Shown here one piece after another: positions 5,271 through 53,572 of a stretch of 53,751 nt of DNA. The translations under genes and the position numbers were made by a program. Source of the DNA: a virus (lineage: Duplodnaviria > Heunggongvirae > Uroviricota > Caudoviricetes); the IMG/VR virus record IMGVR_UViG_2698536392_000015, positions 1-53,751 of that record; one strand, 5' to 3'. Under the pieces are notes generated by a model. That model did not search any database and was not told the origin of the DNA. It worked only from the letters and a program-made list of their open reading frames with translations. Position 1 is the first letter of the stretch. The number at the start of each line of letters is the position of its first letter.

Positions 5271-5573
5271 ATGACATTAAAAGAGTTTATTAAATCATTA
5301 AGGGTTGGTGATGCTAAGAAATTCGCGGCCAGACTTGGTGTATCGCCATCTTACTTATCGCAAATGGCGTCTGGACGAACAGCTATATCTCCAACCCGCG
5401 CCCTTATGATCGAATCTGCGACGGAAGGCCAAGTAAGTAGGGCGGAGCTACGACCCCATGATTGGGAGCTTATTTGGCCTGAGTATGCGAGCGGCATTCG
5501 TTTGGGGCAAACACATGTAGTTCATGCTGAAGGTGATTGTAGTGCATGCTTATCTGATGGAGTTGATTCATGA
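5271..5573 (+). CDS. Cro/YdaS-like HTH regulator
   Basis: HTH motif (AARLGVSPSYLSQMASGR); divergent from repressor; RBS GAGGAAGG. Confidence 0.6.
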   Translation: MTLKEFIKSLRVGDAKKFAARLGVSPSYLSQMASGRTAISPTRALMIESATEGQVSRAELRPHDWELIWPEYASGIRLGQTHVVHAEGDCSACLSDGVDS

Positions 5574-5995
5574 AAATCAAGCATGAACACATCCGCATGG
5601 CGATGAATGTCTGGGCGCATCCGGACGGCGAAAAAGTACCGGCTGCGAAAATTACCAAAGCGTATTTCGAGCTGGGAATGACGTTCCCGGAACTGTACGA
5701 CGACAGCCATCCGGAAGCCCTGGCCCGTAATACCCAGAAAATTTTCCGCTGGGTGGAGAAGGACACCCCTGATGCTGTTGAAAAAATTCAGGCTCTGTTA
5801 CCGGCGATCGAAAAGGCGATGCCGCCTTTGCTGGTGGCCCGTATGCGCAGCCACAGTTCTGAATATTACCGTGAGATCGTCGAACGGAGGGATCGGCTGG
5901 TGAAGGATGTCGATGATTTTGTTGCGTCAGCGGTTGTTTTGTATGACCAGATGAATCGCGGCGGCCCGGCAGGGAATGCTGTGGTGATGCACTAA
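5570..5995 (+). CDS. YdaT-like prophage protein (141 aa)
   Basis: N-terminal MKIKHEH and size match my recollection of Rac YdaT; position after the Cro-like gene. Confidence 0.45.
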   Translation: MKIKHEHIRMAMNVWAHPDGEKVPAAKITKAYFELGMTFPELYDDSHPEALARNTQKIFRWVEKDTPDAVEKIQALLPAIEKAMPPLLVARMRSHSSEYYREIVERRDRLVKDVDDFVASAVVLYDQMNRGGPAGNAVVMH

Positions 5996-6002
5996 AAGCA
6001 CG

Positions 6003-6980
6003 GTGTTCGGGGGTTTTATGAGCAGCAAGCTTCATGGTCTTGTCTGGGAAGGGTGCGCCTTCACCGGCATGATCTTATCCAGGGTGGCGGTTATGGCCCG
6101 TCTTGCAGACTACAGCAATGACGAGGGCGTGTCATGGCCTGCCATTGAAACTATCCGGCGTCAGATCGGTGCAAGAAGTGAATCCACAGTGAAATCGGCT
6201 ATTGCAGAACTGGCGAAAGAGGGCTGGCTGACGAAGGAAGAGCGTAAGGTCGGTGGGCGTAATGTAAGCAATATCTATCGGCTTAATGTGGAAAAACTCG
6301 AAGCAGCTGCGGCGGCGGCGCGTGAGTCATATAAACCAAAAAGAAAAATTAGCCCGGCAAAAAATGACCCGTTAACAGTTGACCCGTCAAATATTGACCC
6401 CTCAACGGTTGACCCGTCAAATTTTGATGGATCAACTGTTGATAAAAAACTGCCGATTAGGGGGGCGATGATTGACCCCGATCCGTCAGTATTAAAACCT
6501 GATCCGTCAGATAAAAGATCTTCTTGTCCGGACGCTTCGCAACCGGACCCGCAGACGGCTGAACAGGATTTTTTAACCCGACACCCTGACGCGGTTGTGT
6601 TCAGTGCGAAAAAACGCCAGTGGGGAAGTCAGGAAGATTTGGTGTGCGCACAGTGGATCTGGGGACGAATCGTGAGTCTTTACGAGCAGGCGGCCAGCTA
6701 TGATGGCGAGATCACTAGACCGAAAGAACCCAACTGGACAGCATGGGCCAATGACGTTCGCACAATGCGGATGCTGGATGGCAGAACTCACAGACAAATT
6801 TGTGAAATGTTTGGGCGTCTCCAGCGGGATTCGTTCTGGGTAAAAAACATCATGAGTCCGGCAAAACTCCGGGAAAAATGGGATGAACTGGTTATCCGCC
6901 TGGGGCGTTCGCCTGCGCAGCGTTGCGTGAATCACATTTCTGAACCGGACACTGAAATTCCGCCGGGCTTCAGGGGGTAA
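6003..6980 (+). CDS. Putative replication initiator / replisome organiser (O-like)
   Basis: N-terminal winged-helix-like region; coding sequence contains iteron-like direct DNA repeats; lies in the replication-gene position. Confidence 0.5.
   Translation: MFGGFMSSKLHGLVWEGCAFTGMILSRVAVMARLADYSNDEGVSWPAIETIRRQIGARSESTVKSAIAELAKEGWLTKEERKVGGRNVSNIYRLNVEKLEAAAAAARESYKPKRKISPAKNDPLTVDPSNIDPSTVDPSNFDGSTVDKKLPIRGAMIDPDPSVLKPDPSDKRSSCPDASQPDPQTAEQDFLTRHPDAVVFSAKKRQWGSQEDLVCAQWIWGRIVSLYEQAASYDGEITRPKEPNWTAWANDVRTMRMLDGRTHRQICEMFGRLQRDSFWVKNIMSPAKLREKWDELVIRLGRSPAQRCVNHISEPDTEIPPGFRG
6362..6515. repeat. Iteron-like direct repeats (candidate replication origin) inside the replication gene
   Basis: TTGACCCGTCAA-like 12-13 bp units repeated at about 6378, 6393, 6408 and 6423, with degenerate copies to about 6510, followed by an A-rich stretch. 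Confidence 0.45.
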
Positions 6981-7020
6981 GTGTTAATTTCTGGTCATGA
7001 GGTAATTTTCAGGAGGGCTT

Positions 7021-7242
7021 GTGGCAAAAGTTTTTACACAAGAAGAGCGGGAAAAAATTAAAGGGCAGGTTGTTGAACTCGTACGCCAGAGTGGGCGCGA
7101 GACGTTACGACAACTGGAAACTAAAACTGGGGCAACAAGATATCTGATAAGCGTTCTGGCCAGAGAGCTGGTTGCCAGTGGCGATGTATACAACTCTGGT
7201 TACGGGTTATTCCCGTCTGAACAGGCGCGTAAGGACTGGTAA
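7021..7242 (+). CDS. Hypothetical small protein (73 aa)
   Basis: Track ORF; coding-like sequence continues in frame after the TAA stop. Confidence 0.3.
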   Translation: MAKVFTQEEREKIKGQVVELVRQSGRETLRQLETKTGATRYLISVLARELVASGDVYNSGYGLFPSEQARKDW

Positions 7243-7439
7243 AATGCCCGTAAAAAGCTCTCAAGGGCAAAGCCGAAGAAACCATCTGCGGTTGATCCGG
7301 ACCTTATCTGGTCATTACCAGATGGCGAAATACGCCGCTACGACAGGCGTCTGAACATAATCTGTCTCGAGTGCCGGAAGGGCGAAGTTATGCAGCGCGT
7401 ACTGGCGTTTTATCAGGGGAATTTTGAGGAGGTGGTGCG

Positions 7440-7694
7440 GTGAGTGAATCAAAATGCCAGGTTAATGGCAACAAGATAGAACCATGTGCAGCACTGGCAA
7501 AGTCCCTTGAGCATGATGCTGAATACACGATGCGAAAAGGTCTGTTGATATACAAAATCTGGAATGAGAGTTTAACTCGCGGTCCTGATTTTGTGATGTT
7601 GCGTTCCGGTGAATTTTCTAAATTACCAGTTCGGGTTTCATTTTGTCCGTTCTGTGGTGAAAGTCTGAAAACGTGGGAGAACAGAAATGAATGA
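7440..7694 (+). CDS. Hypothetical small Cys-containing protein (84 aa)
   Basis: Track ORF; C-terminal CPFCGE motif. Confidence 0.4.
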   Translation: MSESKCQVNGNKIEPCAALAKSLEHDAEYTMRKGLLIYKIWNESLTRGPDFVMLRSGEFSKLPVRVSFCPFCGESLKTWENRNE

Positions 7695-7998
7695 AATCAA
7701 AGAAATACCAGTAGTACGTGATGAATATGGCTGCTGGACGCATCCTGAATATGAAAAATTCTGTGACGGTCGGGAATATATTTCAACGGAAGAGTTTAAC
7801 GCCTGGATGGAGGAAAATAATCTTCAATACGTCCTCTGCTTCAGAGATGAAGGATGTGCTGACCTTGATGCGTGTGATGCTGATATTTCTGCATGGGAAC
7901 CGGAACGACCAGAGGGCAATGGATGGTTTATTGGTTCAATACATGACACCGAAGATGGCCCGGTTTGTGTATGGCTGAGAAATAAGGCCGAAGCATAA
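7687..7998 (+). CDS. Hypothetical nin-region protein (103 aa)
   Basis: Track ORF overlapping the previous stop. Confidence 0.4.
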   Translation: MNEIKEIPVVRDEYGCWTHPEYEKFCDGREYISTEEFNAWMEENNLQYVLCFRDEGCADLDACDADISAWEPERPEGNGWFIGSIHDTEDGPVCVWLRNKAEA

Positions 7999-8130
7999 AG
8001 GCTATAAACCGACTAACAACTAAATACTGAAGATTTAAATCAGAAACGATTTTTATTAAATCCTTAACCGGAGGGATTCCTGCACCCTCAAATCATCAGG
8101 AGGCCGCCCGAAAGGGCGGTGGAGATAATA

Positions 8131-8652
8131 ATGGGAATAACTAAAGAACGATTGTTGGAAATAGCAAACCTTAGTGATTGGGCATTAAGTGATGAGAGAA
8201 TTGTTTCTCCTCATGCTTATGAGTCAGTTACAAGTATAGAAATAACAACAATGGCTAGAATGCTGCTTGGTTATTTCAAAATAGAAAATAAAAAACAGAT
8301 GGATAGTAATGTTGATATATGTGAGATTTTAGACGATTGGGGGGCTTGGGTTGTGGCTGGTAATAGTTCTATTGATTGGCAGGAAATAGCTGATAAATAT
8401 AAAAATGTTGTTCCTCATGGTAAAAAATCACGTCGTCAGTGCAGCAATGATGAAGGGCGAATTATTGACATTAGTATCCTTAGGTTAGAAAGATATAAGC
8501 AACAAGAATATGAGTTAATTGTTGCTCATTTCGTGATTGGTTTATCTCTTCGTGCTATTGCAAAGCAACAAGGATGTTCAGATGGAACAATTCGTAAAAG
8601 ATTGCAAAAAGCCTTAGGTTTTTTGACTGGATATATAGCAATTACCAGTTAA
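8131..8652 (+). CDS. Late antiterminator Q-like protein
   Basis: WGAW motif, conserved RRQC stretch and C-terminal HTH-like ...SDGTIRKRLQKALG pattern resembling phage-82-type Q as recalled; ATG 8131 with GGTGGAG RBS. Confidence 0.6.
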   Translation: MGITKERLLEIANLSDWALSDERIVSPHAYESVTSIEITTMARMLLGYFKIENKKQMDSNVDICEILDDWGAWVVAGNSSIDWQEIADKYKNVVPHGKKSRRQCSNDEGRIIDISILRLERYKQQEYELIVAHFVIGLSLRAIAKQQGCSDGTIRKRLQKALGFLTGYIAITS

Positions 8653-9290
8653 GAGTCAGCGGTTTTTTTACCAGTGTAATGGTATAAGGATACTCCCATG
8701 TGTCTTACATGATATGGAAGCGCTGTTGCTGGATGCTTTGTGATACTCTTAAAGCGGAGGGGAGAGCCTTCCGCTTCAATTTCTGCGTCCGAAACGGTCG
8801 TAGAGAAAAATTCTTTCCATTCATTGAATTTTACTGCTGATTTGTCAGACTTTATATAAATTAGAATTCCTCCATGATCGTCACGTGACGTACCCGTGCC
8901 GTAACGTTCGGTTAGCTGAATCCAGCCATTATGAATAGATTTGGGGCCTCTCCATAATTTTGCTTCACCGATCCATTCGAATTTTCCGAATTGATGTTTA
9001 ACTAATAAATCAACGTGACCGCCATGTTGAGTATCATGTTCAACATCATAAAACCTACCTTTCAGGAAATTTTTGATCGACGCTGTTAGCTCGTCCTCTC
9101 CCCACTTAGCATCTTGATAGAAGTGTTTGTCATTTTCTAAATTCTGAATAGCGTCGTCTAAATCTTCATAGAGTTGCTTTACAAAAATATTTTTGTCTGC
9201 AGCTAATTTTCTTTGAACCATTCCCCTAAATTCAGGATCCATTCTAATTAATGATTGAAGGTCTGCAGTACAGATGTTTACATCACTCAT
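8649..9290 (-). CDS. Hypothetical protein with PD-(D/E)xK nuclease-like motif, gene 3 of a three-gene operon
   Basis: GHVDLL...GEAK spacing compatible with a PD-(D/E)xK core; start MSDVNIC at 9290 with GGAGAG RBS; overlaps the upstream gene stop. Confidence 0.5.
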   Translation of the reverse strand: MSDVNICTADLQSLIRMDPEFRGMVQRKLAADKNIFVKQLYEDLDDAIQNLENDKHFYQDAKWGEDELTASIKNFLKGRFYDVEHDTQHGGHVDLLVKHQFGKFEWIGEAKLWRGPKSIHNGWIQLTERYGTGTSRDDHGGILIYIKSDKSAVKFNEWKEFFSTTVSDAEIEAEGSPLRFKSITKHPATALPYHVRHMGVSLYHYTGKKTADS

Positions 9291-9711
9291 GCAGACTCTC
9301 CAAAAGACTCGAAGGAGTAAAGTATGGATAAAGATACTGGCTAAAATTATCAACCAATTCGCCAGTTTCTGGATGGTAAAAACTTCCTGTGTCTAAAGCA
9401 TAGGAAATAAGATCATCTTCAACTGGTATTGGTTCTTCCGTTAAATTATCAATGTATTGAAAATGCATATCCAATAGATGTGCTTTATAGCTAGATAAAT
9501 AATCAGTTGCTTTTATTAGCAGGATATAGTCATCTTTCGTATCAGTTAGATAGGTTAAACCATTGATAAGGGTTTTGTATGTAAAGTGATTGATATTTTT
9601 AGCATCTTTACTAACCAGAAAAAGAAAAAGATCACGACACACACTGCGAACAGGATCATTAAAATCCTGCTCTATTTGCGTGATAATGTCGTGATATATA
9701 CTCTTTTTCAT
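9283..9711 (-). CDS. Hypothetical protein (142 aa), gene 2 of the operon
   Basis: ATGA start/stop overlap with gene 1; AT-rich; no recognisable motif. Confidence 0.5.
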   Translation of the reverse strand: MKKSIYHDIITQIEQDFNDPVRSVCRDLFLFLVSKDAKNINHFTYKTLINGLTYLTDTKDDYILLIKATDYLSSYKAHLLDMHFQYIDNLTEEPIPVEDDLISYALDTGSFYHPETGELVDNFSQYLYPYFTPSSLLESLHE

Positions 9712-10799
9712 TTATGGCCTGATGATCTCGCTCTTCTTTTCTCTTCACAGGACTTAACAGAATCCAATATTTTTTCAACAATAAATATAATCGAATCAAT
9801 GTTGTTACAGTTCTTCGCAATTGCTTCATGCAACCTAATTCTAGGATTATCAAGCATTGTCCTTTTTCCTGGTAATATTAACTCTACTGATAAAATATGT
9901 GAAGAACTTTGTGGTAAATCCCAAATTTTTCCCAACTTAAACTTTGTCAATATTGGGCTTGCGGACTCTCCACTATGATGGTAAACATCTTGACGCAAAC
10001 ACTTTTGACTTGGTTTGAGTTTTAAAGAACTTGTATTGCCATCTGAGGTGATAAAAGATACATGAGAAATTCTGCCATCTACTTTTTCGTAAAGAACTTG
10101 TATTGAACCAAATAATTCAAGAGGATTGTTTAAAATAACGCCAGCTTCTTTTTTTATAAATTTAGCCACAAGGTATTGTTGAGGCTGTGATTCACTTCTT
10201 GGAAGGATAGATAAATCAATCGTAAGAATTAATATTTTTTCTGCAGGCATTAGCATGATGGTATTAAAGCATTGCGTGACTTGGCGTGTTTTGCATTTTA
10301 TTTCTCCACCATTAGCACGTAATTCCATACCCGCATCGCTAAGATGTGTTGGGTCAAGCTCTATCACTTCAGTGTAATACGCTTTGGATAAAAAAACAGC
10401 AGTGTCAATTTGTTTATCACGAATGATATCTTGACGTAGTTCAGCAAAATGCAGCTCAGTATCAGCAACTAACAGCTCCTCTCTGGATAAAGGAGTTGGG
10501 TATTTTTCTGAGAAGGGGCTATTGTCCTTTTTCTGATTTGTGAAAATTGTTTGTAATTTTGCTACGTCTTCATCGGTGATTCTATAAATAGAAAGTAATC
10601 GATTCCCGCTAAAAATTAAACCTTTCCAGAAATCGTCGATTCTGTCTTTTAGGTCGGGATTATGCTGAACTACACTATTTACACGTTCAATAAAAAGGGG
10701 TAATCCTTGGGCCGTTACACCCAGTGATGAACCAAGAAGCTTACGGGTGTTGCGCCAGCCAAAGCGTGAATTGATGTTTTTTACTGTTTGCTCAAGCAT
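9708..10799 (-). CDS. Hypothetical protein (363 aa), gene 1 of the operon
   Basis: ATG at 10799 with AGGAAG RBS 5 nt upstream; no nucleotide-binding or other recognisable motif. Confidence 0.5.
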   Translation of the reverse strand: MLEQTVKNINSRFGWRNTRKLLGSSLGVTAQGLPLFIERVNSVVQHNPDLKDRIDDFWKGLIFSGNRLLSIYRITDEDVAKLQTIFTNQKKDNSPFSEKYPTPLSREELLVADTELHFAELRQDIIRDKQIDTAVFLSKAYYTEVIELDPTHLSDAGMELRANGGEIKCKTRQVTQCFNTIMLMPAEKILILTIDLSILPRSESQPQQYLVAKFIKKEAGVILNNPLELFGSIQVLYEKVDGRISHVSFITSDGNTSSLKLKPSQKCLRQDVYHHSGESASPILTKFKLGKIWDLPQSSSHILSVELILPGKRTMLDNPRIRLHEAIAKNCNNIDSIIFIVEKILDSVKSCEEKRRARSSGHK

Positions 10800-11145
10800 T
10801 AACACTTCCTTAATTTTCCCTTAACAATTTAGGGTGCTAAACTTTTTTGCGCAGTTTACATAAAAAAATAGTGCGTACGCAAAAACTATCTAACATGATG
10901 AGCTTTAACCGGGAAATTTGTATATGTTGTGAGCATAAAGTTGGCTGAGAAATCTAAAACGGGTAGAATGACTGCGGGTGCTTGAGGCTATCTGTCTCAG
11001 GCATGAACACCAAAAGGCAGATAGAGAAAAGCCCCAGTTAACATTACGCGTCCGGCAAGACGCTTAACATTAATCTGAGGCCATATCTATGCTCTACACA
11101 CGTAGGTTAGCCTCTTACGTGCCGAAAGGCAAGGAGAAGCAGGCT

Positions 11146-11301
11146 ATGAAGCAGCAAAAGGCGATGTTAATCGCCCTGATCGTCATCTGTTTAACCGTCA
11201 TAGTGACGGCACTGGTAACGAGGAAAGACCTCTGCGAGGTACGAATCCGAACCGGCCAGACGGAGGTCGCTGTCTTCACAGCTTACGAACCTGAGGAGTA
11301 A
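11146..11301 (+). CDS. hokD: Hok-family membrane toxin
   Basis: Protein MKQQKAMLIALIVICLTVIVTALVTRKDLCEVRIRTGQTEVAVFTAYEPEE matches HokD/RelF as I recall it; AAGGAG RBS; upstream in-frame extension is mok-like. Confidence 0.85.
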   Translation: MKQQKAMLIALIVICLTVIVTALVTRKDLCEVRIRTGQTEVAVFTAYEPEE

Positions 11302-11370
11302 GAGACCCGGCGAGGGAGAAATCCCTCGCCACCTCTGATGTGGCAGGCATCCTCAACGCACCCGCACTTA

Positions 11371-11398
11371 ACCCGCTTCGGCGGGTTTTTGTTTTTAT
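11371..11398 (+). terminator. Rho-independent terminator after hokD
   Basis: Hairpin ACCCGCTTCGGCGGGT followed by a T-run. Confidence 0.6.
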
Positions 11399-11517
11399 TT
11401 TCAACGCGTTTGAAGTTCTGGACGGTGCCGGAATAGAATCAAAAATACTTAAGTAGCGCGCAGGGATAAGAGGGATGGTCCCTTAAAGGGGAGAGCTAAT
11501 TATCCGGAAGGATTCTG

Positions 11518-11769
11518 ATGATGAACATCGAAGAACTGCGTAAAATTTTTTGTGAAGATGGCCTCTATGCTGTGTGCGTTGAAAATGGAAATCTTGTTAG
11601 TCATTACCGCATTATGTGTTTGCGAAAGAATGGGGCTGCGTTAATTAATTTTGTGGATGCTCGGGTCACGGACGGATTTATCTTGCGCGAAGGTGAGTTT
11701 GTCACTTCATTACAGGCATTGAAAGAGATCGGAATAAAAGCTGGCTTTTCTGCTTTTTCAGGAGAATAA
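11518..11769 (+). CDS. Rem-like small protein (83 aa)
   Basis: Track ORF; size and position after hokD match rem of Qin-like prophages (positional inference only). Confidence 0.45.
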   Translation: MMNIEELRKIFCEDGLYAVCVENGNLVSHYRIMCLRKNGAALINFVDARVTDGFILREGEFVTSLQALKEIGIKAGFSAFSGE

Positions 11770-11835
11770 ACTCATCTACAATCTTGCGCGGGGCTGAACT
11801 CCCGCTGAGTAACACCGTGCCACCGGAGAAAACCG

Positions 11836-12114
11836 ATGGCACGCAACGCAAAATATTACAATTCTGATAATTCGCCCGTTCTTGCCTGCACGCACGGGCG
11901 GTATTCTCACGCATTCAAGTCTGAATGGTTCCAGCACCCTCCATGCACTGCAGAACAGGCCGAATGGCTGATTCATTCTTACCGCAGGCGCGGGTTCGAG
12001 GTTAAGAAAGCTCTCAGTCTCGACTATCGGCACTGGATAATCTCTGTCAGGCTGCCTTATTCCGACCGCCCACCACGTGCGTCCCGCACTTTCCAGCAAC
12101 GGATCTGGAGGTAA
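11836..12114 (+). CDS. Hypothetical ORF, possibly a frameshifted 5' part of the next coding region
   Basis: Coding-like for most of its length; overlaps 12077..12433 in another frame. Confidence 0.3.
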   Translation: MARNAKYYNSDNSPVLACTHGRYSHAFKSEWFQHPPCTAEQAEWLIHSYRRRGFEVKKALSLDYRHWIISVRLPYSDRPPRASRTFQQRIWR

Positions 12115-12430
12115 CGTGCGGGTATTACTTAGACCTGTTCTGGTGCCTGAGCTTGGGCTGGTGGTCCTTAAGCCGGGCCGTGAATCCATACAGATATTTC
12201 ATAATCCTCGAGTGCTGGTGGAACCGGAACCAAAAAGCATGCGTAATCTGCCATCCGGAGTCGTTCCTGCCGTTCGCCAGCCGCTGGCGGAAGACAAAAC
12301 ATTGCTGCCGTTTTTTAGTAACGAACGGGTGATTCGTGCTGCTGGCGGCGTTGGCGCATTGTCCGACTGGCTATTACGTCATGTTACATCCTGCCAGTGG
12401 CCTAATGGCGATTACCATCATGTAACCAAG
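12077..12430 (+). pseudogene. Coding-like ORF running into the Mu-like left end, probably a host prophage gene disrupted by the insertion
   Basis: ORF stays open up to the junction and stops just inside the Mu-like end; C-terminal region is protein-like. Confidence 0.35.
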
Positions 12431-12600
12431 TGAATCATTTGATACCGACAAGGGTTTTAGTGAAAGGAGGTGAAATCACCTGTAAGATGCTGAAATAAAA
12501 CAGGTGATGTATAGTTCGGACGGAAAACTCTTTTTGATACCGACTGCTCAACAAATAGTCAAAAGATCAAAAAACGGCGACACATTTGATACTGCTAATT
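12431..12600. repeat. Left-end transposase-binding repeats (attL, L1-L3 like)
   Basis: TTTGATACCGAC at 12438 and 12533, TTTGATACTGC at 12585; spacing resembles Mu L1/L2/L3. Confidence 0.6.
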
Positions 12601-12776: not shown

Positions 12777-13388
12777 TTAACCAACAACATTTTTCTTTAC
12801 TGTCACTGCCCCTGATTCCTGGGTGGCGTTATTGCTCGAGTTGTACTTCTCAATAACGCGCAAAATCTCTTTGTCTGTTTCTTCACTTCCCGCCATTCCT
12901 ATCTTTATTGCATTTTTTAGTACGGGACGTAATGGCAAGGCATCAATGATGCTTTCTACCGCATCCTGGCTGATTGTAGATGTATTCATTGCTGCCAGCC
13001 TGACAAGGTTGTTAGTACCTTCTCGCCTGATGAATGTAAGGATTAATTGCTTCTCTTGGGGGCTTAGAGAGCTAAGCGCCTGATCAATACCCGAACCTGA
13101 ATCGCAATTATTTTCGATTTTTCCGCATTCATCTTCGTTCTTGCCTGTGGCCAACCATTCGAGTGAACAATTACAGGCTTTAGCTATTAAGGCCAGTTTA
13201 TCCAAAGGAGGGAAGTTTTTCCCCTTCCTGTAATTTCTTACTGTGGCTTCAGATAGTCCACAAAGGGTCGCCAGTTCGACGTTTGTCATGTCTCCCATAG
13301 CCATAGCTAAGCGTTCTGAAAATCGGTTTATTCCTTCCATATCAATAAACCGTTCCGCACTGGATACGGTTTTTTCTGCCTTATCCAT
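12777..13388 (-). CDS. Mu-like prophage repressor (XRE-type HTH)
   Basis: HTH (MTNVELATLCGLSEATVRNYRKGK); leftward gene at the left end, divergent from ner. Confidence 0.7.
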   Translation of the reverse strand: MDKAEKTVSSAERFIDMEGINRFSERLAMAMGDMTNVELATLCGLSEATVRNYRKGKNFPPLDKLALIAKACNCSLEWLATGKNEDECGKIENNCDSGSGIDQALSSLSPQEKQLILTFIRREGTNNLVRLAAMNTSTISQDAVESIIDALPLRPVLKNAIKIGMAGSEETDKEILRVIEKYNSSNNATQESGAVTVKKNVVG

Positions 13389-13544: not shown

Positions 13545-13811
13545 ATGAGGGTATCCAGACAAGCATCGAATAATTTGTTTGTTCGAGAGGGGTGTGACTG
13601 GTCTGCTAAAGCGGTATATGCAGCCCTTGAAAACAAAGGCACAGACCTCCCTGAACTGGAAAGGGAGTTAGGATTAAAAAGCGGATCAATGCGCAATGTG
13701 TTTTACCGCCAGTGCCGTAAATACGAAGCCGCCATCGCCGAAAAAATAGGGGTTGAACCTGCTGTAATCTGGCCCAGCAGATACCAGGTGGACGCCAGAG
13801 AAGTGGCTTGA
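13545..13811 (+). CDS. ner: Ner-like DNA-binding protein
   Basis: C-terminal ...AVIWPSRYQ motif as in Mu Ner; position between repressor and transposase. Confidence 0.7.
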   Translation: MRVSRQASNNLFVREGCDWSAKAVYAALENKGTDLPELERELGLKSGSMRNVFYRQCRKYEAAIAEKIGVEPAVIWPSRYQVDAREVA

Positions 13812-13821
13812 TGGGGGATGT

Positions 13822-15912
13822 ATGTGGGTAACAGCAAAAGAATGTGTTGGTCTTCCTGATTTACCAATGATGGAACATAACATTCGCCATCGACTCACAA
13901 AAGCAGCTGCGGGAAATGCAGCCATGTTACGCAAACGTAAGGGGACAAAAGCAATCGAATTTAATATCGATTGTTTGCCTTCTGGCGCGCAACAAGTATT
14001 GCGTGAACGTTATGCCCTTCAACTGATGACGCAAAAAGCCGATGAATCACCGGCTCCGGTGGTGACAAAGGCCAGACGCTCGCCTGCCGTGGTTGATGCG
14101 GTGGAGGCATATCGCGGATCACCACAACTGATGGTTGAACGCCTTAATGCCCTGACTGAAAACCAGCGCCAGGTGGCTGATGCACGAATCGCGATCGTCA
14201 GCGAAGTGATGAAAGTCGCGCAACAACCCGGTTTCAGCTGTGCGAAAGCTATCCGGTTTATCGTTGACAACCTGGCACGTTCGCAGCTGGACGAGCGCAT
14301 TGTGGCAATGGTTGAGACGGCGAACGCCAAAAAGGGAAACAGCCGCGCGTTGAGTGAAATCACGCTGAAACGCTGGATTGCAGCCTTTAACAAGGCGCAG
14401 AACGCCGCCGAACGCCTGCTTTTACTGGCACCGGGTAAGCGCCAGGAAATAAAAGCCGAAGATATTAACTGGCTGCCCGAATTTCTGGCGCAGTATCGCC
14501 AGTCAAACGGCCGACCAATGACCGAGGCTTACGAGGATTTTGTCGCTGAATGGCAGCACCGGCACGCTGATGAGCCTTATATGCTCGATATCATGCCGTC
14601 TTATGACACCATTCGCCGCGCAATGAAGAAACTGCCGGAAGTGGTGAAACAAAAAGGCCGGGTGACCGGCAGTGAATACCGCCAGCTTGAGGGATTCACG
14701 CGCCGCGACTGGTCAAAAATGCCGGTGAATTATGTCTGGATTGGTGACGGTCACGGCATGAAGCTGAAATGCGCACACCCGGTTCACGGTCGGCCATTTG
14801 CACCGGAAGTGACCTTTGTTATCGACGGTGGCACGCGCTTTGTGGTGGGCTGGAGCCTTGACCTGGCTGAAAATGTTTTCGCCGTAGCCGGTGCCATACA
14901 GCACGGCATTCGCCATCACGGCAAACCGTTTCTGTATTACTCGGATAACGGCTCCGGGGAAACCGCCGACATCCTGGATAAGGAGGTTGTGGGGATACTG
15001 CCGCGACTGGGGATTAATCACCCGACCGGGATTGCCGGTAATCCGCAGGGACGAGGCATTATCGAACGGCTTAACCGCACATTACCGATGCGCATAGCCC
15101 GTAAATACCGCACCTATTTCGGGAAAGGTGCAGATCGCGAGACGTTACGCAAAACCAACCGCGATTTACGCTCGGCATTTACTGCCCTGCAACAGGGCAA
15201 ACGGCTGAACGCCCGGCAGCAGTCAGCGATGCGTGATTTACCGTCCTGGTCTGAACTGATTGATGCCATTCGTGACGGTGTTGAGTGGTACAACAACCGG
15301 CCGCACGATGAATTACCCATGAAGCCGAACGGGAAACATTACAGCCCGGCGGAGTTCAGAAAAAAACGCCTGGCGGAAGAGGACACTGAAATTGAATGGC
15401 TGTCCGATGTTGAGCTGCGGGATATGTTCCGGCCGATGGTGGAACGCCCTGTAAGACGCTGTGAAATACGCTGGCTGAATAATATTTACTACGCGCCCGA
15501 GCTGCGTGACGAGCATGGCCGCAAGGTGCTTATCAGCTATGACATTCATGATGCCGAACGAATTACCGTTCGTCGCCCGGATGGCAGCGTGATTTGCGAG
15601 GCGGTATGGGACGGCAATAAACGCGAAGCCTTCCCGGTCAGCGCGGAATACTACAAACAGCAGCAGCGCCTTAAAGGTATGCGTAAACGCGCAGAGGAAA
15701 AAATCCGTGATGCCGAGGATGAGGTTGTCAACGTGCTGGAGCACAAGCCGCAGGAGCCATGGCTGGAAAACATATACCGCCCTGTGGGTAATACGGTGAC
15801 CGTTCAGCGACCAGCCGTTGATGATGAACCTGATGAAGAATACGAGCGTAATTTCCAGCGGGGATTGCAGTTGCTGGAAGCGAAATTAAAAGAAAATGAC
15901 CCGCTGGCCTGA
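13822..15912 (+). CDS. Mu-type DDE transposase
   Basis: 696 aa; N-terminal WVTAKECVGLPDLP resembles the MuA N-terminus; position and size match MuA. Confidence 0.9.
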   Translation: MWVTAKECVGLPDLPMMEHNIRHRLTKAAAGNAAMLRKRKGTKAIEFNIDCLPSGAQQVLRERYALQLMTQKADESPAPVVTKARRSPAVVDAVEAYRGSPQLMVERLNALTENQRQVADARIAIVSEVMKVAQQPGFSCAKAIRFIVDNLARSQLDERIVAMVETANAKKGNSRALSEITLKRWIAAFNKAQNAAERLLLLAPGKRQEIKAEDINWLPEFLAQYRQSNGRPMTEAYEDFVAEWQHRHADEPYMLDIMPSYDTIRRAMKKLPEVVKQKGRVTGSEYRQLEGFTRRDWSKMPVNYVWIGDGHGMKLKCAHPVHGRPFAPEVTFVIDGGTRFVVGWSLDLAENVFAVAGAIQHGIRHHGKPFLYYSDNGSGETADILDKEVVGILPRLGINHPTGIAGNPQGRGIIERLNRTLPMRIARKYRTYFGKGADRETLRKTNRDLRSAFTALQQGKRLNARQQSAMRDLPSWSELIDAIRDGVEWYNNRPHDELPMKPNGKHYSPAEFRKKRLAEEDTEIEWLSDVELRDMFRPMVERPVRRCEIRWLNNIYYAPELRDEHGRKVLISYDIHDAERITVRRPDGSVICEAVWDGNKREAFPVSAEYYKQQQRLKGMRKRAEEKIRDAEDEVVNVLEHKPQEPWLENIYRPVGNTVTVQRPAVDDEPDEEYERNFQRGLQLLEAKLKENDPLA

Positions 15913-15983: not shown

Positions 15984-16916
15984 ATGACTGATATTAACGA
16001 TGTAATCAAGACCATTGATGAACTTATTGATGGCGGCGTACTGACGCAGTATGCCATCGCCAGAGAGGCGGGAATTTCCGACGGCACATTATCGGCTTTC
16101 CGTAAGGGAAAATATAAAGGCGATAACGCTGCTGTGGCTGCTTCCCTGTGTTCCTGGTATGAGAACTGGAATAAACAAAGCGCACTGCCGGAACCGCCGC
16201 AGTTTGTGGAAACGCAGACAGTCCAGGAGCTGCGCGCGCTGTTTCAGGCGGTTCGCCTGATGGGCTGTATTAACGTTATTGTGGGCGTGCCGGGGGTAGG
16301 TAAAACGGCCACCGCCCGTAATTACTGCCAGGAGCAACCAAACACCTGGATGATCACCCTGTCTCCCGCGCATTCCAGCGTCACGGAGTGTCTGCTGGAG
16401 CTGGCCGATGCGCTGGGGATTGATTACACCCGCGCGAACAAGGGGGCATTATCCCGCGCCATCCGCCGTCGCCTGATGGGAACGCGTGGACTGGTGATTG
16501 TGGATGAGGCGGATCATCTTGGTATTGACGGTCTGGAGCAACTCCGGGCAATTCAGGACGCCACGGGGATCGGGATGGTGCTTATTGGTAACCCGCGCGG
16601 ATTGTTTAAAGGTGGACGCCGCGCCTTTGATGATTTATCGCGCCTGTTCAGCCGTCTTGCCCGTACAAAACAACTTCGCAAGGCCAAAAAGGCGGATGTG
16701 CTGGCCATTGCCAGGGCGTGGGGTATCAGTGGTGAGGCCGAGCTGGCTGTCATGCAGGCTATCGCTGAAAAACCGGGAGCATTACGTGTTTTGACGCATA
16801 CGCTTAACCAGGCGTGGATCACCGCCAGCGGTGAAGGTGCGGCGCTGACAGAAAAACATATTAATGCGGCTTTTAAAGAGGTTTACACCAACCCTGAATT
16901 ACTCTCGCAGGTGTGA
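15984..16916 (+). CDS. MuB-like AAA+ ATPase transposition protein
   Basis: Walker A GVPGVGKT, Walker B LVIVDEAD; follows the transposase gene. Confidence 0.9.
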   Translation: MTDINDVIKTIDELIDGGVLTQYAIAREAGISDGTLSAFRKGKYKGDNAAVAASLCSWYENWNKQSALPEPPQFVETQTVQELRALFQAVRLMGCINVIVGVPGVGKTATARNYCQEQPNTWMITLSPAHSSVTECLLELADALGIDYTRANKGALSRAIRRRLMGTRGLVIVDEADHLGIDGLEQLRAIQDATGIGMVLIGNPRGLFKGGRRAFDDLSRLFSRLARTKQLRKAKKADVLAIARAWGISGEAELAVMQAIAEKPGALRVLTHTLNQAWITASGEGAALTEKHINAAFKEVYTNPELLSQV

Positions 16917-50541: not shown

Positions 50542-50727
50542 ATGTATCGAAACATACGGTGCCGACACTGCAATAAGCTACTGGCACGGGCCAGTTTCAG
50601 TTATCTGGAAGTAAAATGTCCGCGCTGCAAAACCCTCAATCAAATCACATCTCAGAGCGCCACAGAGCACCCCACATACACAAGGAAATCCTGCCGTGGG
50701 GAACAAGAAACATTACTTTCAGTCTGA
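50542..50727 (+). CDS. com: Com-like zinc-finger translational regulator
   Basis: MYRNIRCRHCNKLLARASFSYLEVKCPRCK aligns with Mu Com (MKSIRCKNCNKLLFKADSFDHIEIRCPRCK) as recalled; AGGAGG RBS; overlaps the downstream gene start. Confidence 0.8.
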   Translation: MYRNIRCRHCNKLLARASFSYLEVKCPRCKTLNQITSQSATEHPTYTRKSCRGEQETLLSV

Positions 50728-51748
50728 TAAGTCACTAACCTATGGTTCAGTATGCAGTGGTATTGAAGCTGCGACAGTAGCCTGGAGCAATCTTGGCTGG
50801 AAAGCCAGTTGGTTCAGTGAAATAGAGGACTTCCCGTCAACACTTCTTTCATATCGCTGGCCCCATATACCAAATCTTGGTGATATGGCTTTGCTTGCGC
50901 CTCGTATCAGGGATGGGCTTATTGAAGCACCAGATATTCTTGTAGGTGGAACTCCGTGTCAGGCATTCAGTATGTCAGGCAAACGAAAAGGCCTTTCAGA
51001 TCCACGGGGGCAGTTAACACTGTCTTTTGTTGAACTGGCGAATCAGATAGATACCGTTCGGGCATCGCTCAATAAATCCCCCTCAATAATCGTATGGGAA
51101 AACGTCACAGGAGTTTTAAGTAGCCATGACAATGCATTCGGTCATTTTCTTGGTGCGCTGGCCGGAGCAGGTTGCGCATTACAGCCAGCAAGGAAAAGAT
51201 GGGCAAACGCTGGTGTTGTGTCTGGACCATCGCGTATCGTCGCCTGGCGAGTACTTGATGCCCAATATTTCGGAGTCGCCCAGGCTCGCAGAAGAGTGTT
51301 TGTTGTGGCAAGTGCTGGAAAAAGGCTCGATCCCGGAAAGGTATTATTTGAGTTCCCGCCTGTGTCGCAGGGCGATAAAAACTATTACGGAAAGAAGAAA
51401 AAATCCGAATCCCTTCTTGATCAAGGCATTGAAGGAAAATTGCACCGATATTGCCTTGAAGCATTGCCAAAACGAACAGGCACAGTAATAGCTGGCTATA
51501 ACGGAACAACTAACCAGGACATGACTATGTCTGGTGGGCTCATAGTTGAAAGAGCGCCATATTCAAGGGTTCGTAGGTTGACGCCAACCGAATGCGAGAG
51601 GCTACAAGGTTTTCCCGATGGATATACAGATATTCCATGGAAAAATTCATCTCCAGCTCATCGTTATAAGGCCATTGGAAATTCAATGCCTGTACCGGTC
51701 ATGAAATGGATTGGTCGAAGAATACAGGAAGCGTTAAACGAAGTTTAA
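50696..51748 (+). CDS. DNA (cytosine-5)-methyltransferase
   Basis: C5-MTase motifs: GSVCSGIEA (I-like), GGTPCQAFSMSGKRKG (IV), IIVWENVTGVLS (VI), AQARRRVFVVA (VIII), RRLTPTECERLQGFPDGY (C-terminal); GTG start overlapping com. Confidence 0.85.
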   Translation: MGNKKHYFQSDKSLTYGSVCSGIEAATVAWSNLGWKASWFSEIEDFPSTLLSYRWPHIPNLGDMALLAPRIRDGLIEAPDILVGGTPCQAFSMSGKRKGLSDPRGQLTLSFVELANQIDTVRASLNKSPSIIVWENVTGVLSSHDNAFGHFLGALAGAGCALQPARKRWANAGVVSGPSRIVAWRVLDAQYFGVAQARRRVFVVASAGKRLDPGKVLFEFPPVSQGDKNYYGKKKKSESLLDQGIEGKLHRYCLEALPKRTGTVIAGYNGTTNQDMTMSGGLIVERAPYSRVRRLTPTECERLQGFPDGYTDIPWKNSSPAHRYKAIGNSMPVPVMKWIGRRIQEALNEV

Positions 51749-52673: not shown

Positions 52674-53033
52674 ATGCGTACAGAGTTTGTTTTGCCCTGG
52701 CCGCCGACGGTGAACACTTACTGGCGACGTCGTGGCAGCACATATTTTGTATCAAAAACCGGTGAGCGTTATCGCCGGGATGTGGCGCTAATTGTTCGCC
52801 AGCAGCGCCTGCAATTACATCTGTCCGGAAGGCTGGCGATAAAGATTATTGCCGAGCCACCGGATAAGCGTCGCCGTGACCTGGACAATATTCTGAAAGC
52901 GTTGCTGGATGCGCTGACGCATGCGGGAGTACTCATTGATGATGAGCAGTTTGATGAAATCAATATTGTACGTAGTCAGCTTGTTCCTGGTGGTCGGTTG
53001 GGTGTGAAGATTTACAAAATTGAGAGTGAGTGA
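52674..53033 (+). CDS. rusA: Holliday junction resolvase RusA
   Basis: VLPWPPTVNTYWRRRG...KRRRDLDNILKALLDALTHAGVLIDDEQ matches RusA family as recalled. Confidence 0.85.
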   Translation: MRTEFVLPWPPTVNTYWRRRGSTYFVSKTGERYRRDVALIVRQQRLQLHLSGRLAIKIIAEPPDKRRRDLDNILKALLDALTHAGVLIDDEQFDEINIVRSQLVPGGRLGVKIYKIESE

Positions 53034-53572
53034 GCGTAAATATGATATATCCGGAAATGACAGGCAAAAGCGGCGAACATTTACGCCTGAACACGCTGGA
53101 AGCAGTCTGGATCCAGGGGAAATTACGGATGTGGGGGCGGTGGTCGTATATCGGTGGGGGTAAATCCGGAAATATGTTTAACCGGTTACTGGTTTCGAAA
53201 AAGCTGACGAAAACAGCAGTTAATGAGGTTTTACGCAGAATGAAGAAATCCGGGCTGGAAAAACCGGAACTTGAGGCATTTTTTCGGGATATGACCAGAG
53301 GGAAGCAGAAGAGCTGGTTGTCACATTGTACAGACACAGAGGCGTTGATTATTGATCGCGTTATCAGTGAGGTGCTTGGGGAATATCCCGGGCTAATCAA
53401 TATTCTCCGGCAAAGGTACGAAGGACGGGGAATGAGTAAGAGAAAAATGGCAGAATGTTTAAATCGTACTCACCCGGAATGGTGTTTCAGCACATGTGAG
53501 AAACGTATTGCAGGTTGGTTAGCCGTGGCTGAACACATGCTTTATGTACCTATGCACGATTCATTTCGATAA
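53030..53572 (+). CDS. Putative late antiterminator (Q-like)
   Basis: Position after rusA and before a terminator; WGRW motif; family not recognised with certainty. Confidence 0.45.
   Translation: MSVNMIYPEMTGKSGEHLRLNTLEAVWIQGKLRMWGRWSYIGGGKSGNMFNRLLVSKKLTKTAVNEVLRRMKKSGLEKPELEAFFRDMTRGKQKSWLSHCTDTEALIIDRVISEVLGEYPGLINILRQRYEGRGMSKRKMAECLNRTHPEWCFSTCEKRIAGWLAVAEHMLYVPMHDSFR

What the first reader, a model, noticed from the sequence alone, without database searches (positions are those of the whole stretch)
11089..11400. Orphan hokD-like toxin locus without upstream relBE
The Hok protein is recognisable, with a mok-like upstream in-frame extension and a strong terminator. In E. coli K-12 Qin, hokD follows relB-relE; here the upstream neighbour is the unrelated three-gene operon on the other strand, suggesting replacement by recombination.
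Basis: partly seen in the sequence, partly recalled or inferred. Interest (0 to 1): 0.35.

Follow-up and report, generated by a model that had tools for sequence, protein, structure and literature searches.

The report
Complete prophage hokD/sok toxin-antitoxin cassette
This is an ordinary, complete copy of a well-known small toxin gene (hokD/hokW) with its antisense-RNA antidote, carried by a lambda-like prophage. The laboratory strain K-12, where relBE sits in front of hokD, has the truncated and less common arrangement.

Summary
A 51-aa Hok protein (11146-11301) is identical to K-12 HokD. It has an in-frame 70-codon mok extension starting at 11089 and a strong terminator (11370-11387).

The interpretation has the direction reversed. 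The locus is not an orphan left after relBE was replaced. It is the full hok/mok/sok cassette (about 10941-11397), with:
- a hok promoter
- a 5' tac element that pairs with a 3' fbi element
- a mok ribosome-binding site
- a 71-nt antisense Sok RNA with its own promoter

K-12 matches the window only from 11132 onward. It therefore lacks the promoter, tac, the mok start and sok, yet keeps an fbi with no partner, so K-12 is the derived form. No relBE remnant exists anywhere in the window.

The full cassette occurs in 4014 of 5426 complete E. coli genomes; the relE-hokD junction occurs in 1164. The cassette is 93% identical to hokW-sokW of phages 933W and Sp5, which is annotated and experimentally characterised.

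The cassette is a sharply bounded mosaic module. Its upstream flank falls into 47 sequence clusters among the window plus 110 viral contigs.

One possibly new point: a hypervariable 20-nt patch coincides with the 5' tail of Sok. Overall this is already known and of low interest.

The parts
10941..10969 (+). hok/mok mRNA promoter: TTGGCT (-35), 17-nt spacer, TAGAAT (-10)
   Evidence: Consensus scan, 9 of 12 matches. The -10 lies 6 nt upstream of the conserved mRNA 5' end. The -10 is conserved in related loci, while sequence further upstream diverges.
10976..11393 (+). Full-length hok mRNA, from the 5' end (by homology) to the terminator
   Evidence: The Rfam RF01794 model starts at 10976. The fold gives MFE -171.1 kcal/mol and z=-7.46 against shuffles.
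10976..10987 (+). tac (translational activator) element, GGGUGCUUGAGG
   Evidence: It pairs with 11351-11363 in the MFE of the full-length RNA. 99% of cells are paired across 91 unique related sequences.
11029..11037 (+). ucb / anti-SD box (AAGCCCCAG)
   Evidence: In the full-length MFE, 11035-11037 pair with the mok SD region 11075-11077. In the RNA truncated at 11348, tac pairs with 11029-11035 instead. The Rfam consensus structure shows the same tac stem.
11027..11097 (-). Sok antisense RNA (71 nt): 15-nt single-stranded 5' tail, long hairpin, U-rich 3' end
   Evidence: Coordinates transferred from the sokW misc_RNA annotated in phage 933W, AF125520. The hairpin folds at -28.6 to -30.1 kcal/mol, z=-5.1. 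99% of cells are paired, with 3 compensatory pairs.
11104..11132 (-). sok promoter: TTGCCT (-35, 11132->11127), 17-nt spacer, TAACCT (-10, 11109->11104)
   Evidence: Read directly from the sequence. This is the same hexamer that was mutated to abolish sokW expression in PMC8621323 (primers YO-421/422). It is invariant in 105 of 109 related loci. It was not picked up by the consensus scan because the -10 matches only 3 of 6.
11077..11080 (+). mok Shine-Dalgarno sequence, GAGG
   Evidence: Read from the sequence; nearly invariant across related loci.
11089..11301 (+). mok reading frame (70 codons), in frame with hok
   Evidence: ORF list. 65 of 70 residues are identical to the annotated MokW of 933W. 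The ATG has zero diversity in 91 unique sequences.
11082..11102 (.). Hypervariable patch: the Sok 5' tail, which overlaps the mok SD-AUG spacer and the first mok codons
   Evidence: Nucleotide diversity is 0.37-0.39, against 0.042 at hok third codon positions and 0.05 in the rest of the leader. Seven major classes differ at 2-8 of 15 nt.
11146..11301 (+). hok toxin gene (51 aa, identical to HokD); GGAG SD at 11133-11136
   Evidence: Pfam PF01848. 51 of 51 residues identical to K-12 HokD and 47 of 51 to HokW.
11309..11330 (+). 3' UTR stem-loop GGCGAGGGA-GAAA-UCCCUCGCC. Inferred to be the protective 3' end of the processed, translatable mRNA
   Evidence: Present in the MFE. 99% of cells are paired, with 4 compensatory pairs. 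The role is inferred from the R1 model as described in PMC9841398.
11351..11363 (+). fbi (fold-back inhibitory) element, CCUCAACGCACCC
   Evidence: Pairs with tac at 12 pairs with one bulge at 11357. The only common variant, C->U, falls on the bulged base. The element is also retained in K-12, where tac is missing.
11370..11397 (+). Intrinsic terminator and right boundary of the cassette
   Evidence: Terminator scan. Homology with most related loci ends at 11390-11400, and diversity jumps from about 0.1 to 0.36-0.5 after 11390.

Best explanation
Window 10941-11397 is a complete hok/mok/sok type I toxin-antitoxin cassette of the prophage hokD/hokW lineage. It sits in the early-right (nin/Q) region of a lambdoid prophage.

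Inferred mechanism, by homology with R1 hok/sok and Sp5 hokW-sokW:
1. A stable full-length hok mRNA is made from the promoter at 10941-10969. It is kept untranslatable and unable to bind Sok by the tac-fbi 5'-3' pairing and by sequestration of the mok SD.
2. Slow 3' trimming back to the 11309-11330 stem-loop removes fbi.
3. tac then pairs with the anti-SD box, the mok ribosome-binding site opens, and translation of mok is coupled to that of hok.
4. The unstable 71-nt Sok RNA, transcribed convergently from TTGCCT-17-TAACCT, pairs through its 5' tail and stem with the mok ribosome-binding site of the trimmed mRNA and triggers RNase III cleavage.
5. When Sok synthesis stops (loss of the prophage, prophage induction, or host shut-off), the membrane toxin HokD is made.

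Shown here: all sequence elements, their conservation, and the tac-fbi pairing in the predicted fold.
Inferred: expression, mRNA processing, toxicity in this host, and biological role.

The missing relBE is simply the ancestral and commoner state. K-12 has a relBE-bearing segment that replaced everything upstream of the hok SD.
For: Identity of the parts:
- Pfam Hok/Gef E=2.9e-23.
- The protein is identical to HokD.
- Rfam RF01794 scores 117 bits (cut-off 59) over 10976-11151 on the hok-sense strand.
- A promoter and a terminator are found.

RNA structure:
- tac-fbi pairing appears in the MFE, z=-7.46.
- The Sok hairpin has z=-5.1.
- The helices are 97-99% paired, with compensatory changes, across 91 unique homologues.

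Homology with a characterised locus:
- The cassette is 93% identical to the 933W locus, where mokW, hokW and sokW are annotated.
- hokW-sokW of Sp5 was shown experimentally to be a type I TA system that depends on the sok promoter, RNase III and Hfq (PMC8621323). The mutated -10 hexamer in that work is identical to the one here.

Relation to K-12:
- K-12 homology starts only at 11132.
- The full cassette is in 4014 of 5426 E. coli genomes and the relE-hokD junction in 1164.
- PMC6379469 states that relBE integration shortened the ancestral hokD ORF of about 70 codons.

Spread: more than 594 relatives are found in IMG/VR viral contigs.
Against: - No expression or toxicity data exist for this copy.
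- The sok -10 (TAACCT) is a weak consensus match and was not found by the generic scan.
- The predicted tac/anti-SD switch appears only when the RNA is cut at 11348, not at 11333 or 11340, so the processing step is modelled only loosely.
- According to the bioRxiv survey, earlier work found that chromosomal hokA, hokB and hokC loci did not mediate post-segregational killing, so functionality cannot be assumed for every intact copy.
Confidence: 0.88

Rival explanations
1. hokD was originally the third gene of a relB-relE-hokD operon, and here relBE was replaced by recombination with an unrelated three-gene operon. This would leave an orphan toxin gene.
For: K-12 does have relB-relE-hokD. A mosaic boundary does lie upstream of hok in most related loci. 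The three-gene operon is shared with only a minority of loci: 6 of 111 sequences (the window plus 5 viral loci), and 6 E. coli genomes.
Against: - The window has 156 nt of hok-family leader upstream of the K-12 junction (10976-11131), including the tac partner of fbi, the mok start and sok. K-12 lacks all of these.
- K-12 retains a functionless fbi.
- No relBE remnant is found by blastn or tblastn.
- The relBE-less form is 3.4 times more frequent.
- The literature states that relBE integrated into hokD.
Confidence: 0.04
2. The cassette is structurally intact but functionally silent: a relic like the inactivated chromosomal hok loci of K-12, carried along passively by the prophage.
For: According to the bioRxiv survey, earlier work found that the chromosomal hokA, hokB and hokC loci did not mediate killing. 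The prophage here is itself disrupted by a Mu-like insertion 1.1 kb downstream.
Against: - Every element is intact and under visible constraint: diversity is 0.00-0.05 over most of the cassette, and the mok ATG is invariant.
- There are compensatory changes in stems.
- The 93%-identical hokW-sokW is functional.
- The HokD peptide was toxic as a control in the bioRxiv survey.
Confidence: 0.12
3. The parts are the same, but the main role is not prophage addiction. Instead the cassette acts as a lysis-timing helper or an abortive-infection module. Sok is lost when the prophage is induced or when a superinfecting phage shuts off host transcription, and HokD then permeabilises the membrane early.
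For: hokW-sokW speeds growth arrest and doubles Sp5 release after mitomycin C, with Sok lost in a RecA-dependent way (PMC8621323). R1 hok/sok is reported to exclude T4 (cited in PMC10305079). The cassette is co-oriented with rightward early prophage transcription, which would collide with the convergent sok promoter; this last point is my inference.
Against: None from this window. The tools cannot distinguish between these roles, and the roles are not mutually exclusive.
Confidence: 0.4

Closest known systems
hokW-mokW-sokW of Stx phages 933W and Sp5 (VT2-Sakai)
   Same: Same cassette architecture and boundaries. 93% nucleotide identity over 411 nt. Identical sok -35 and -10 hexamers, a 71-nt Sok, a 70-codon in-frame mok, and identical tac and fbi elements. 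The locus has been experimentally validated as a type I TA system (PMC8621323).
   Different: The Hok C-terminus differs at 4 of 51 residues (TAYEPEE versus VDYESEK). The target of the Sok 5' tail differs at 5 of 15 nt. 933W lacks the same terminator sequence and has different flanks.
hokD (relF) of E. coli K-12 Qin prophage, in the relB-relE-hokD operon
   Same: Identical 51-aa toxin. 99.9% nucleotide identity from 11132 through rem to 11920. The 3' stem-loop, fbi, terminator and downstream rem gene are the same.
   Different: K-12 lacks the hok promoter, tac, the anti-SD, the mok SD and ATG, the Sok RNA and the sok -10. relE ends 71 nt upstream of hokD, and hokD is co-transcribed with relBE. 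The window has the full regulatory leader and no relBE.
hok/sok (parB) of plasmid R1, the family archetype
   Same: Same set of elements: tac, fbi, ucb, mok, a Sok with a 5' tail and a hairpin, and a sok promoter placed between the mok and hok starts. The leader matches the Rfam family built on these loci. The mechanism is as described in PMC9841398.
   Different: About 44% protein identity, as reported for HokW against Hok in PMC8621323. From my memory of the R1 sequence (not tested here), mok is out of frame with hok in R1 but in frame here. R1 is plasmid-borne, whereas this locus is prophage-borne.

Membership tests
hok/sok (Hok/Gef) type I toxin-antitoxin family | Small Hok/Gef membrane toxin (about 50 aa, PF01848) | tested here: met
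   PF01848 E=2.9e-23, 81.6 bits against a cut-off of 22. NCBIfam Hok family models hit below their cut-offs. PHROG 251 E=7.8e-33.
hok/sok (Hok/Gef) type I toxin-antitoxin family | Overlapping upstream mok reading frame with its own SD | tested here: met
   70-codon ORF 11089-11301 with GAGG 8 nt upstream. The ATG is invariant in 91 unique homologues. Translational coupling itself cannot be tested here.
hok/sok (Hok/Gef) type I toxin-antitoxin family | Cis-encoded antisense Sok RNA with its own promoter, complementary to the mok translation-initiation region | tested here: met
   The promoter TTGCCT-17-TAACCT and a 71-nt hairpin RNA at 11097->11027 are homologous to the annotated and mutated sokW. 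Transcription was not measured.
hok/sok (Hok/Gef) type I toxin-antitoxin family | Long-range tac-fbi pairing between the mRNA 5' and 3' ends | tested here: met
   12 pairs, 10976-10987 with 11351-11363, in the MFE. 99% of cells are paired in homologues; there is no covariation because both sides are nearly invariant.
hok/sok (Hok/Gef) type I toxin-antitoxin family | Refolding after 3' trimming: tac pairs with ucb and frees the mok SD | tested here: inconclusive
   Predicted for a 3' end at 11348 but not for 11333 or 11340. The Rfam consensus structure contains the tac-ucb stem.
hok/sok (Hok/Gef) type I toxin-antitoxin family | Leader matches the curated covariance model RF01794 | tested here: met
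   117.1 bits against a gathering score of 59, E=4.2e-27, over the full model 1-157.
K-12-type relB-relE-hokD (relBEF) operon | relE immediately upstream of hokD, which lacks its own leader | tested here: not met
   No RelB or RelE is found by tblastn in the window. Homology with K-12 starts at 11132.
K-12-type relB-relE-hokD (relBEF) operon | HokD toxin sequence | tested here: met
   51 of 51 residues identical.

The most novel reading that the evidence does not exclude
The 15-nt single-stranded 5' tail of Sok, together with the mok SD-AUG spacer and first codons that it covers (11082-11102), may be a specificity determinant under diversifying selection. Prophage hok cassettes that are otherwise more than 95% identical fall into at least 7 classes that differ at 2-8 of these 15 nt. 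This could keep the Sok RNAs of co-resident prophages (up to 9 copies per genome) from cross-silencing each other's toxins, much like plasmid incompatibility groups.
Probability: 0.3. Interest if true: 0.4.

Novelty: already known. Interest (0 to 1): 0.1.

Why it matters
It matters little for discovery. The result corrects an annotation-by-K-12 bias: the reference-strain arrangement (relBE-hokD) is the truncated exception, and the 'orphan' hokD is the complete, widespread prophage cassette.

There are two practical lessons. The functional unit begins about 150 nt upstream of the reported start. And absence of relBE next to hokD should not be flagged as unusual.

The one lead worth keeping is the hypervariable Sok recognition tail. 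If it defines non-cross-reacting classes, it would explain how many nearly identical hok/sok cassettes coexist in polylysogenic E. coli.

Tried and rejected
- relBE remnants: blastn (word size 7) of 10401-12500 against K-12 relB-relE-hokD-rem, and tblastn of RelB and RelE against the window and 200 related loci. Nothing was found upstream of 11132.
- Generic promoter scan: it did not report the sok promoter because the -10 matches only 3 of 6. The promoter was accepted on homology and published mutagenesis instead.
- Truncated-mRNA folds ending at 11333 and 11340 did not give the expected tac-ucb stem; only 11348 did.
- The long-range pairing of the patch (11080-11095) seen in the MFE is not conserved: 72% of cells paired. 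No column elsewhere in the mRNA shows mutual information above 0.45 bit with the patch. I found no covarying structural partner, so structural covariation does not account for the variability.
- Co-residence test of Sok classes: only 4 same-genome pairs were available, of which 3 differ. About 86% are expected to differ by chance, so the test is uninformative.
- Three-gene upstream operon: no Pfam, NCBIfam or PDB sequence match. PADLOC gave only one weak hit for the 234-aa ORF (PDC-S54, E=0.002). The only clear hits are PHROGs of unknown function.
- The Rfam isrK and rsmX hits in the 3' UTR are far below the gathering scores and were treated as chance.
- Literature search for cross-talk among prophage hok/sok alleles found nothing relevant.

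Full report
**What is there.** The region holds a 70-codon ORF at 11089-11301 on the + strand. Its last 51 codons (ATG at 11146) match Pfam PF01848 Hok/Gef (E=2.9e-23). The 51-aa product is identical at every position to K-12 HokD and at 47 of 51 positions to HokW of phage 933W. A canonical intrinsic terminator (AACCCGC-TTCG-GCGGGTT plus a T-run) lies at 11370-11387.

**The unit is larger than reported.** Rfam RF01794 (named 'sok') matches 10976-11151 at 117.1 bits against a gathering score of 59. The match is on the hok-sense strand and runs from the mRNA 5' end to the hok start codon, so in practice the model describes the hok leader.
- A sigma-70-type promoter, TTGGCT-17-TAGAAT (10941-10969), ends 6 nt upstream of G10976.
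- On the minus strand I read TTGCCT (11132->11127), a 17-nt spacer, then TAACCT (11109->11104).
- Phage 933W (AF125520) is 93% identical over 411 nt. It annotates mokW, hokW and a 71-nt sokW antisense RNA.
- Transferred through the alignment, Sok corresponds to window 11097->11027, starting 7 nt after TAACCT.
- It folds into a 15-nt free 5' tail followed by a long hairpin and a U-rich end (-28.6 to -30.1 kcal/mol, z=-5.1).
- In the experimental study of hokW-sokW from Sakai prophage Sp5 (PMC8621323), the 'promoter-less' mutant was made with primers YO-421/YO-422. These primers change exactly this hexamer (TAACCT to GAGCCG on the sok strand). The mutation unmasked HokW toxicity, and Sok supplied in trans partially restored growth.

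**RNA architecture.** The full-length transcript 10976-11393 folds with MFE -171.1 kcal/mol, z=-7.46 against dinucleotide shuffles.
- In that fold the 5' GGGUGCUUGAGG (10976-10987, tac) pairs with CCUCAACGCACCC (11351-11363, fbi): 12 pairs and one bulge.
- The anti-SD box at about 11029-11037 partly covers the mok SD region.
- When the RNA is cut at 11348, removing fbi, the MFE shifts. tac then pairs with 11029-11035 and the GAGG at 11077-11080 becomes mostly unpaired. This is the switch described for R1 hok (PMC9841398).
- Cuts at 11333 and 11340 give a different fold, so I treat this step as consistent with the model but not demonstrated.
- Across 91 unique homologous sequences from IMG/VR, 97-99% of cells are paired in the tac-fbi helix, the 5' hairpin, the Sok-stem hairpin, the hok-SD hairpin and the 3' stem-loop 11309-11330.
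- Compensatory double changes occur in the Sok stem (3 pairs), the 3' stem-loop (4) and the terminator (5).

**Relation to K-12.** In MG1655 the order is relB-relE-hokD-rem-ydfU-Q. Homology between the window and K-12 is 99.9% from 11132 to 11920 and absent upstream. The junction falls inside the sok -35 hexamer, 14 nt before the hok ATG.
- K-12 has therefore lost the hok promoter, tac, the anti-SD, the mok SD and ATG, Sok and the sok -10.
- K-12 still carries fbi and the 3' stem-loop, which have no function without tac. This settles the polarity: the window has the ancestral, complete form and K-12 has a derived truncation.
- The displaced 5' leader is not found elsewhere in K-12-type records. 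They show a single match place that covers only query positions 170-438. The K-12 event was therefore a replacement, not a simple insertion.
- The literature agrees. PMC6379469 states that the ancestral hokD ORF of about 70 codons is reduced to 51 codons in K-12 by integration of a plasmid-derived relBE.
- No RelB or RelE coding potential exists anywhere in the window or in 200 related viral loci.

**Frequency and modularity.**
- A place covering at least 80% of the full cassette (10963-11400) is present in 4014 of 5426 complete E. coli genomes, with up to 9 places per genome.
- The K-12 relE-hokD junction is present in 1164 genomes.
- 79 deposited phage genomes carry the cassette, variously annotated MokW, HokD, 'host killer' or RelF.
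- IMG/VR holds more than 594 relatives.
- Among the 80 closest viral loci, homology with the window ends on the left at about 10940-10963 in 73 loci. It ends on the right at about 11390-11400 in most.
- Per-column diversity in 109 independently sampled loci is 0.00-0.10 inside 10960-11390 and 0.3-0.5 outside.
- Clustering the 800 nt upstream of the cassette in 111 sequences (the window plus 110 viral loci) gives 47 clusters. The window's three-gene operon cluster has 6 members.
- So the cassette is a sharply bounded mosaic module next to a hypervariable cargo slot. The three-gene operon, and relBE-ydfV-flxA in K-12, are two of many alternative occupants.
- In the window the cassette lies between an extra Q-like gene plus that operon (99.4% identical to E2348/69 over 5559-11396) and rem-ydfU (100% identical to several E. 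coli genomes). No complete genome in the collection combines both sides.

**How it most likely works.** See the best explanation. The mechanism is inferred by homology with R1 hok/sok and Sp5 hokW-sokW. What is shown here is the presence, integrity and conservation of every required element. The biological role cannot be decided here. The candidates are prophage addiction, early membrane permeabilisation on induction (as shown for hokW), or abortive infection (as reported for R1 against T4). My own inference is that rightward early prophage transcription, which is co-oriented with hok, would collide with the convergent sok promoter. That could account for the RecA-dependent loss of Sok reported in PMC8621323.

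**One feature I did not find described in the papers I could search.** Inside the otherwise conserved cassette, positions 11082-11102 are hypervariable.
- Nucleotide diversity is 0.37 in the mok SD-AUG spacer and 0.39 in 11092-11102.
- This compares with 0.042 at hok third codon positions, 0.052 in the rest of the leader and 0.007 in 11103-11145.
- The mok ATG in the middle of the patch has zero diversity.
- The patch coincides with the single-stranded 5' tail of Sok. As I recall from the R1 literature (not re-checked here), that tail initiates target recognition.
- Sequences fall into about 7 major classes that differ at 2-8 of 15 positions. The window belongs to the most common class.
- The rate far exceeds that of synonymous sites. 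I found no covarying partner: no mutual information above 0.45 bit, and the predicted long-range pairing of this segment is only 72% conserved.
- Diversifying selection on antisense specificity is therefore plausible, but relaxed constraint together with recombination is not excluded.
- A co-residence test was underpowered: 4 same-genome pairs, 3 discordant, about 86% expected by chance.
- The accessible literature, including a 2026 survey of Hok diversity that deliberately left Sok and Mok aside, does not mention it.

**Verdict.** Its central inference is wrong: the locus is not an orphan, and it is not the product of relBE replacement. The locus is a standard, already annotated and experimentally characterised kind of prophage type I toxin-antitoxin cassette. 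Interest is low.

Noticed in passing
window 12421-51908 (approximate right end): A Mu-like prophage of about 39.5 kb is inserted in the ydfU-like DUF968 gene of the lambdoid prophage, 1.1 kb downstream of hokD. Its genes include a c-repressor-like gene at 12777-13388(-), a Ner-like gene at 13545-13811, a MuA-like gene at 13822-15912 (PF09299), a MuB-like gene at 15984-16916 (PF09077) and a C5-cytosine methylase at 50696-51748 next to the right end. Both ends carry TTTGATACCGA repeats, and the flanks share ATCA. No complete E. coli genome in the collection has this junction.
   Followed up: partly
window 8649-10805 (-): The three-gene operon upstream of hok encodes ORFs of 365, 142 and 234 aa (about 198 aa from the start annotated in E2348/69). 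They match PHROGs 12777, 11490 and 9664, all of unknown function. There is no Pfam, NCBIfam or PDB sequence match, and PADLOC gives only one weak hit for the 234-aa ORF (PDC-S54, E=0.002). By eye, that last protein has a PD-(D/E)xK-like motif (HVDLLV...GEAKLW). The operon occupies the variable cargo slot next to the hok cassette and is shared with E2348/69 and a few viral contigs, so it is a candidate moron or defence module.
   Followed up: partly
window 11082-11102: A hypervariable patch coincides with the Sok 5' tail and the mok SD-AUG spacer plus first codons. Diversity is about 9 times that of hok synonymous positions, with an invariant ATG in the middle. There are about 7 allele classes among prophage cassettes.
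   Followed up: partly
window 8119-8652 (+) and 53030-53572 (+): The same prophage has two antiterminator-Q-family genes. One is a small Q-like protein (PF06530, with a sigma-70 region 4-like C-terminus) just upstream of the three-gene operon. The other is a DUF1133/Q protein downstream of rusA. E2348/69 has the same duplication.
   Followed up: no
window 11397-11818: The rem gene (11518-11769) and its promoter-like site (11410-11439) form an indel relative to E2348/69. That strain goes directly from the hok terminator to the 279-nt gene. The window thus combines an E2348/69-type left side with a 55989/K-12-type right side.
   Followed up: partly
window 11284-11287: The Tyr47 codon of hokD is UAC followed by G. 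UACG is, from memory, the TadA recognition motif. A bioRxiv survey says hokD mRNA undergoes A-to-I recoding of a Tyr to the second Cys, as hokB does. HokW has the same UACG.
   Followed up: no
window 11310-11391: A sub-threshold Rfam match to isrK, a Salmonella prophage Hfq-binding sRNA (25.7 bits against a gathering score of 50, E=0.014), covers the hok 3' stem-loop and terminator. It is probably generic hairpin-plus-terminator similarity.
   Followed up: no
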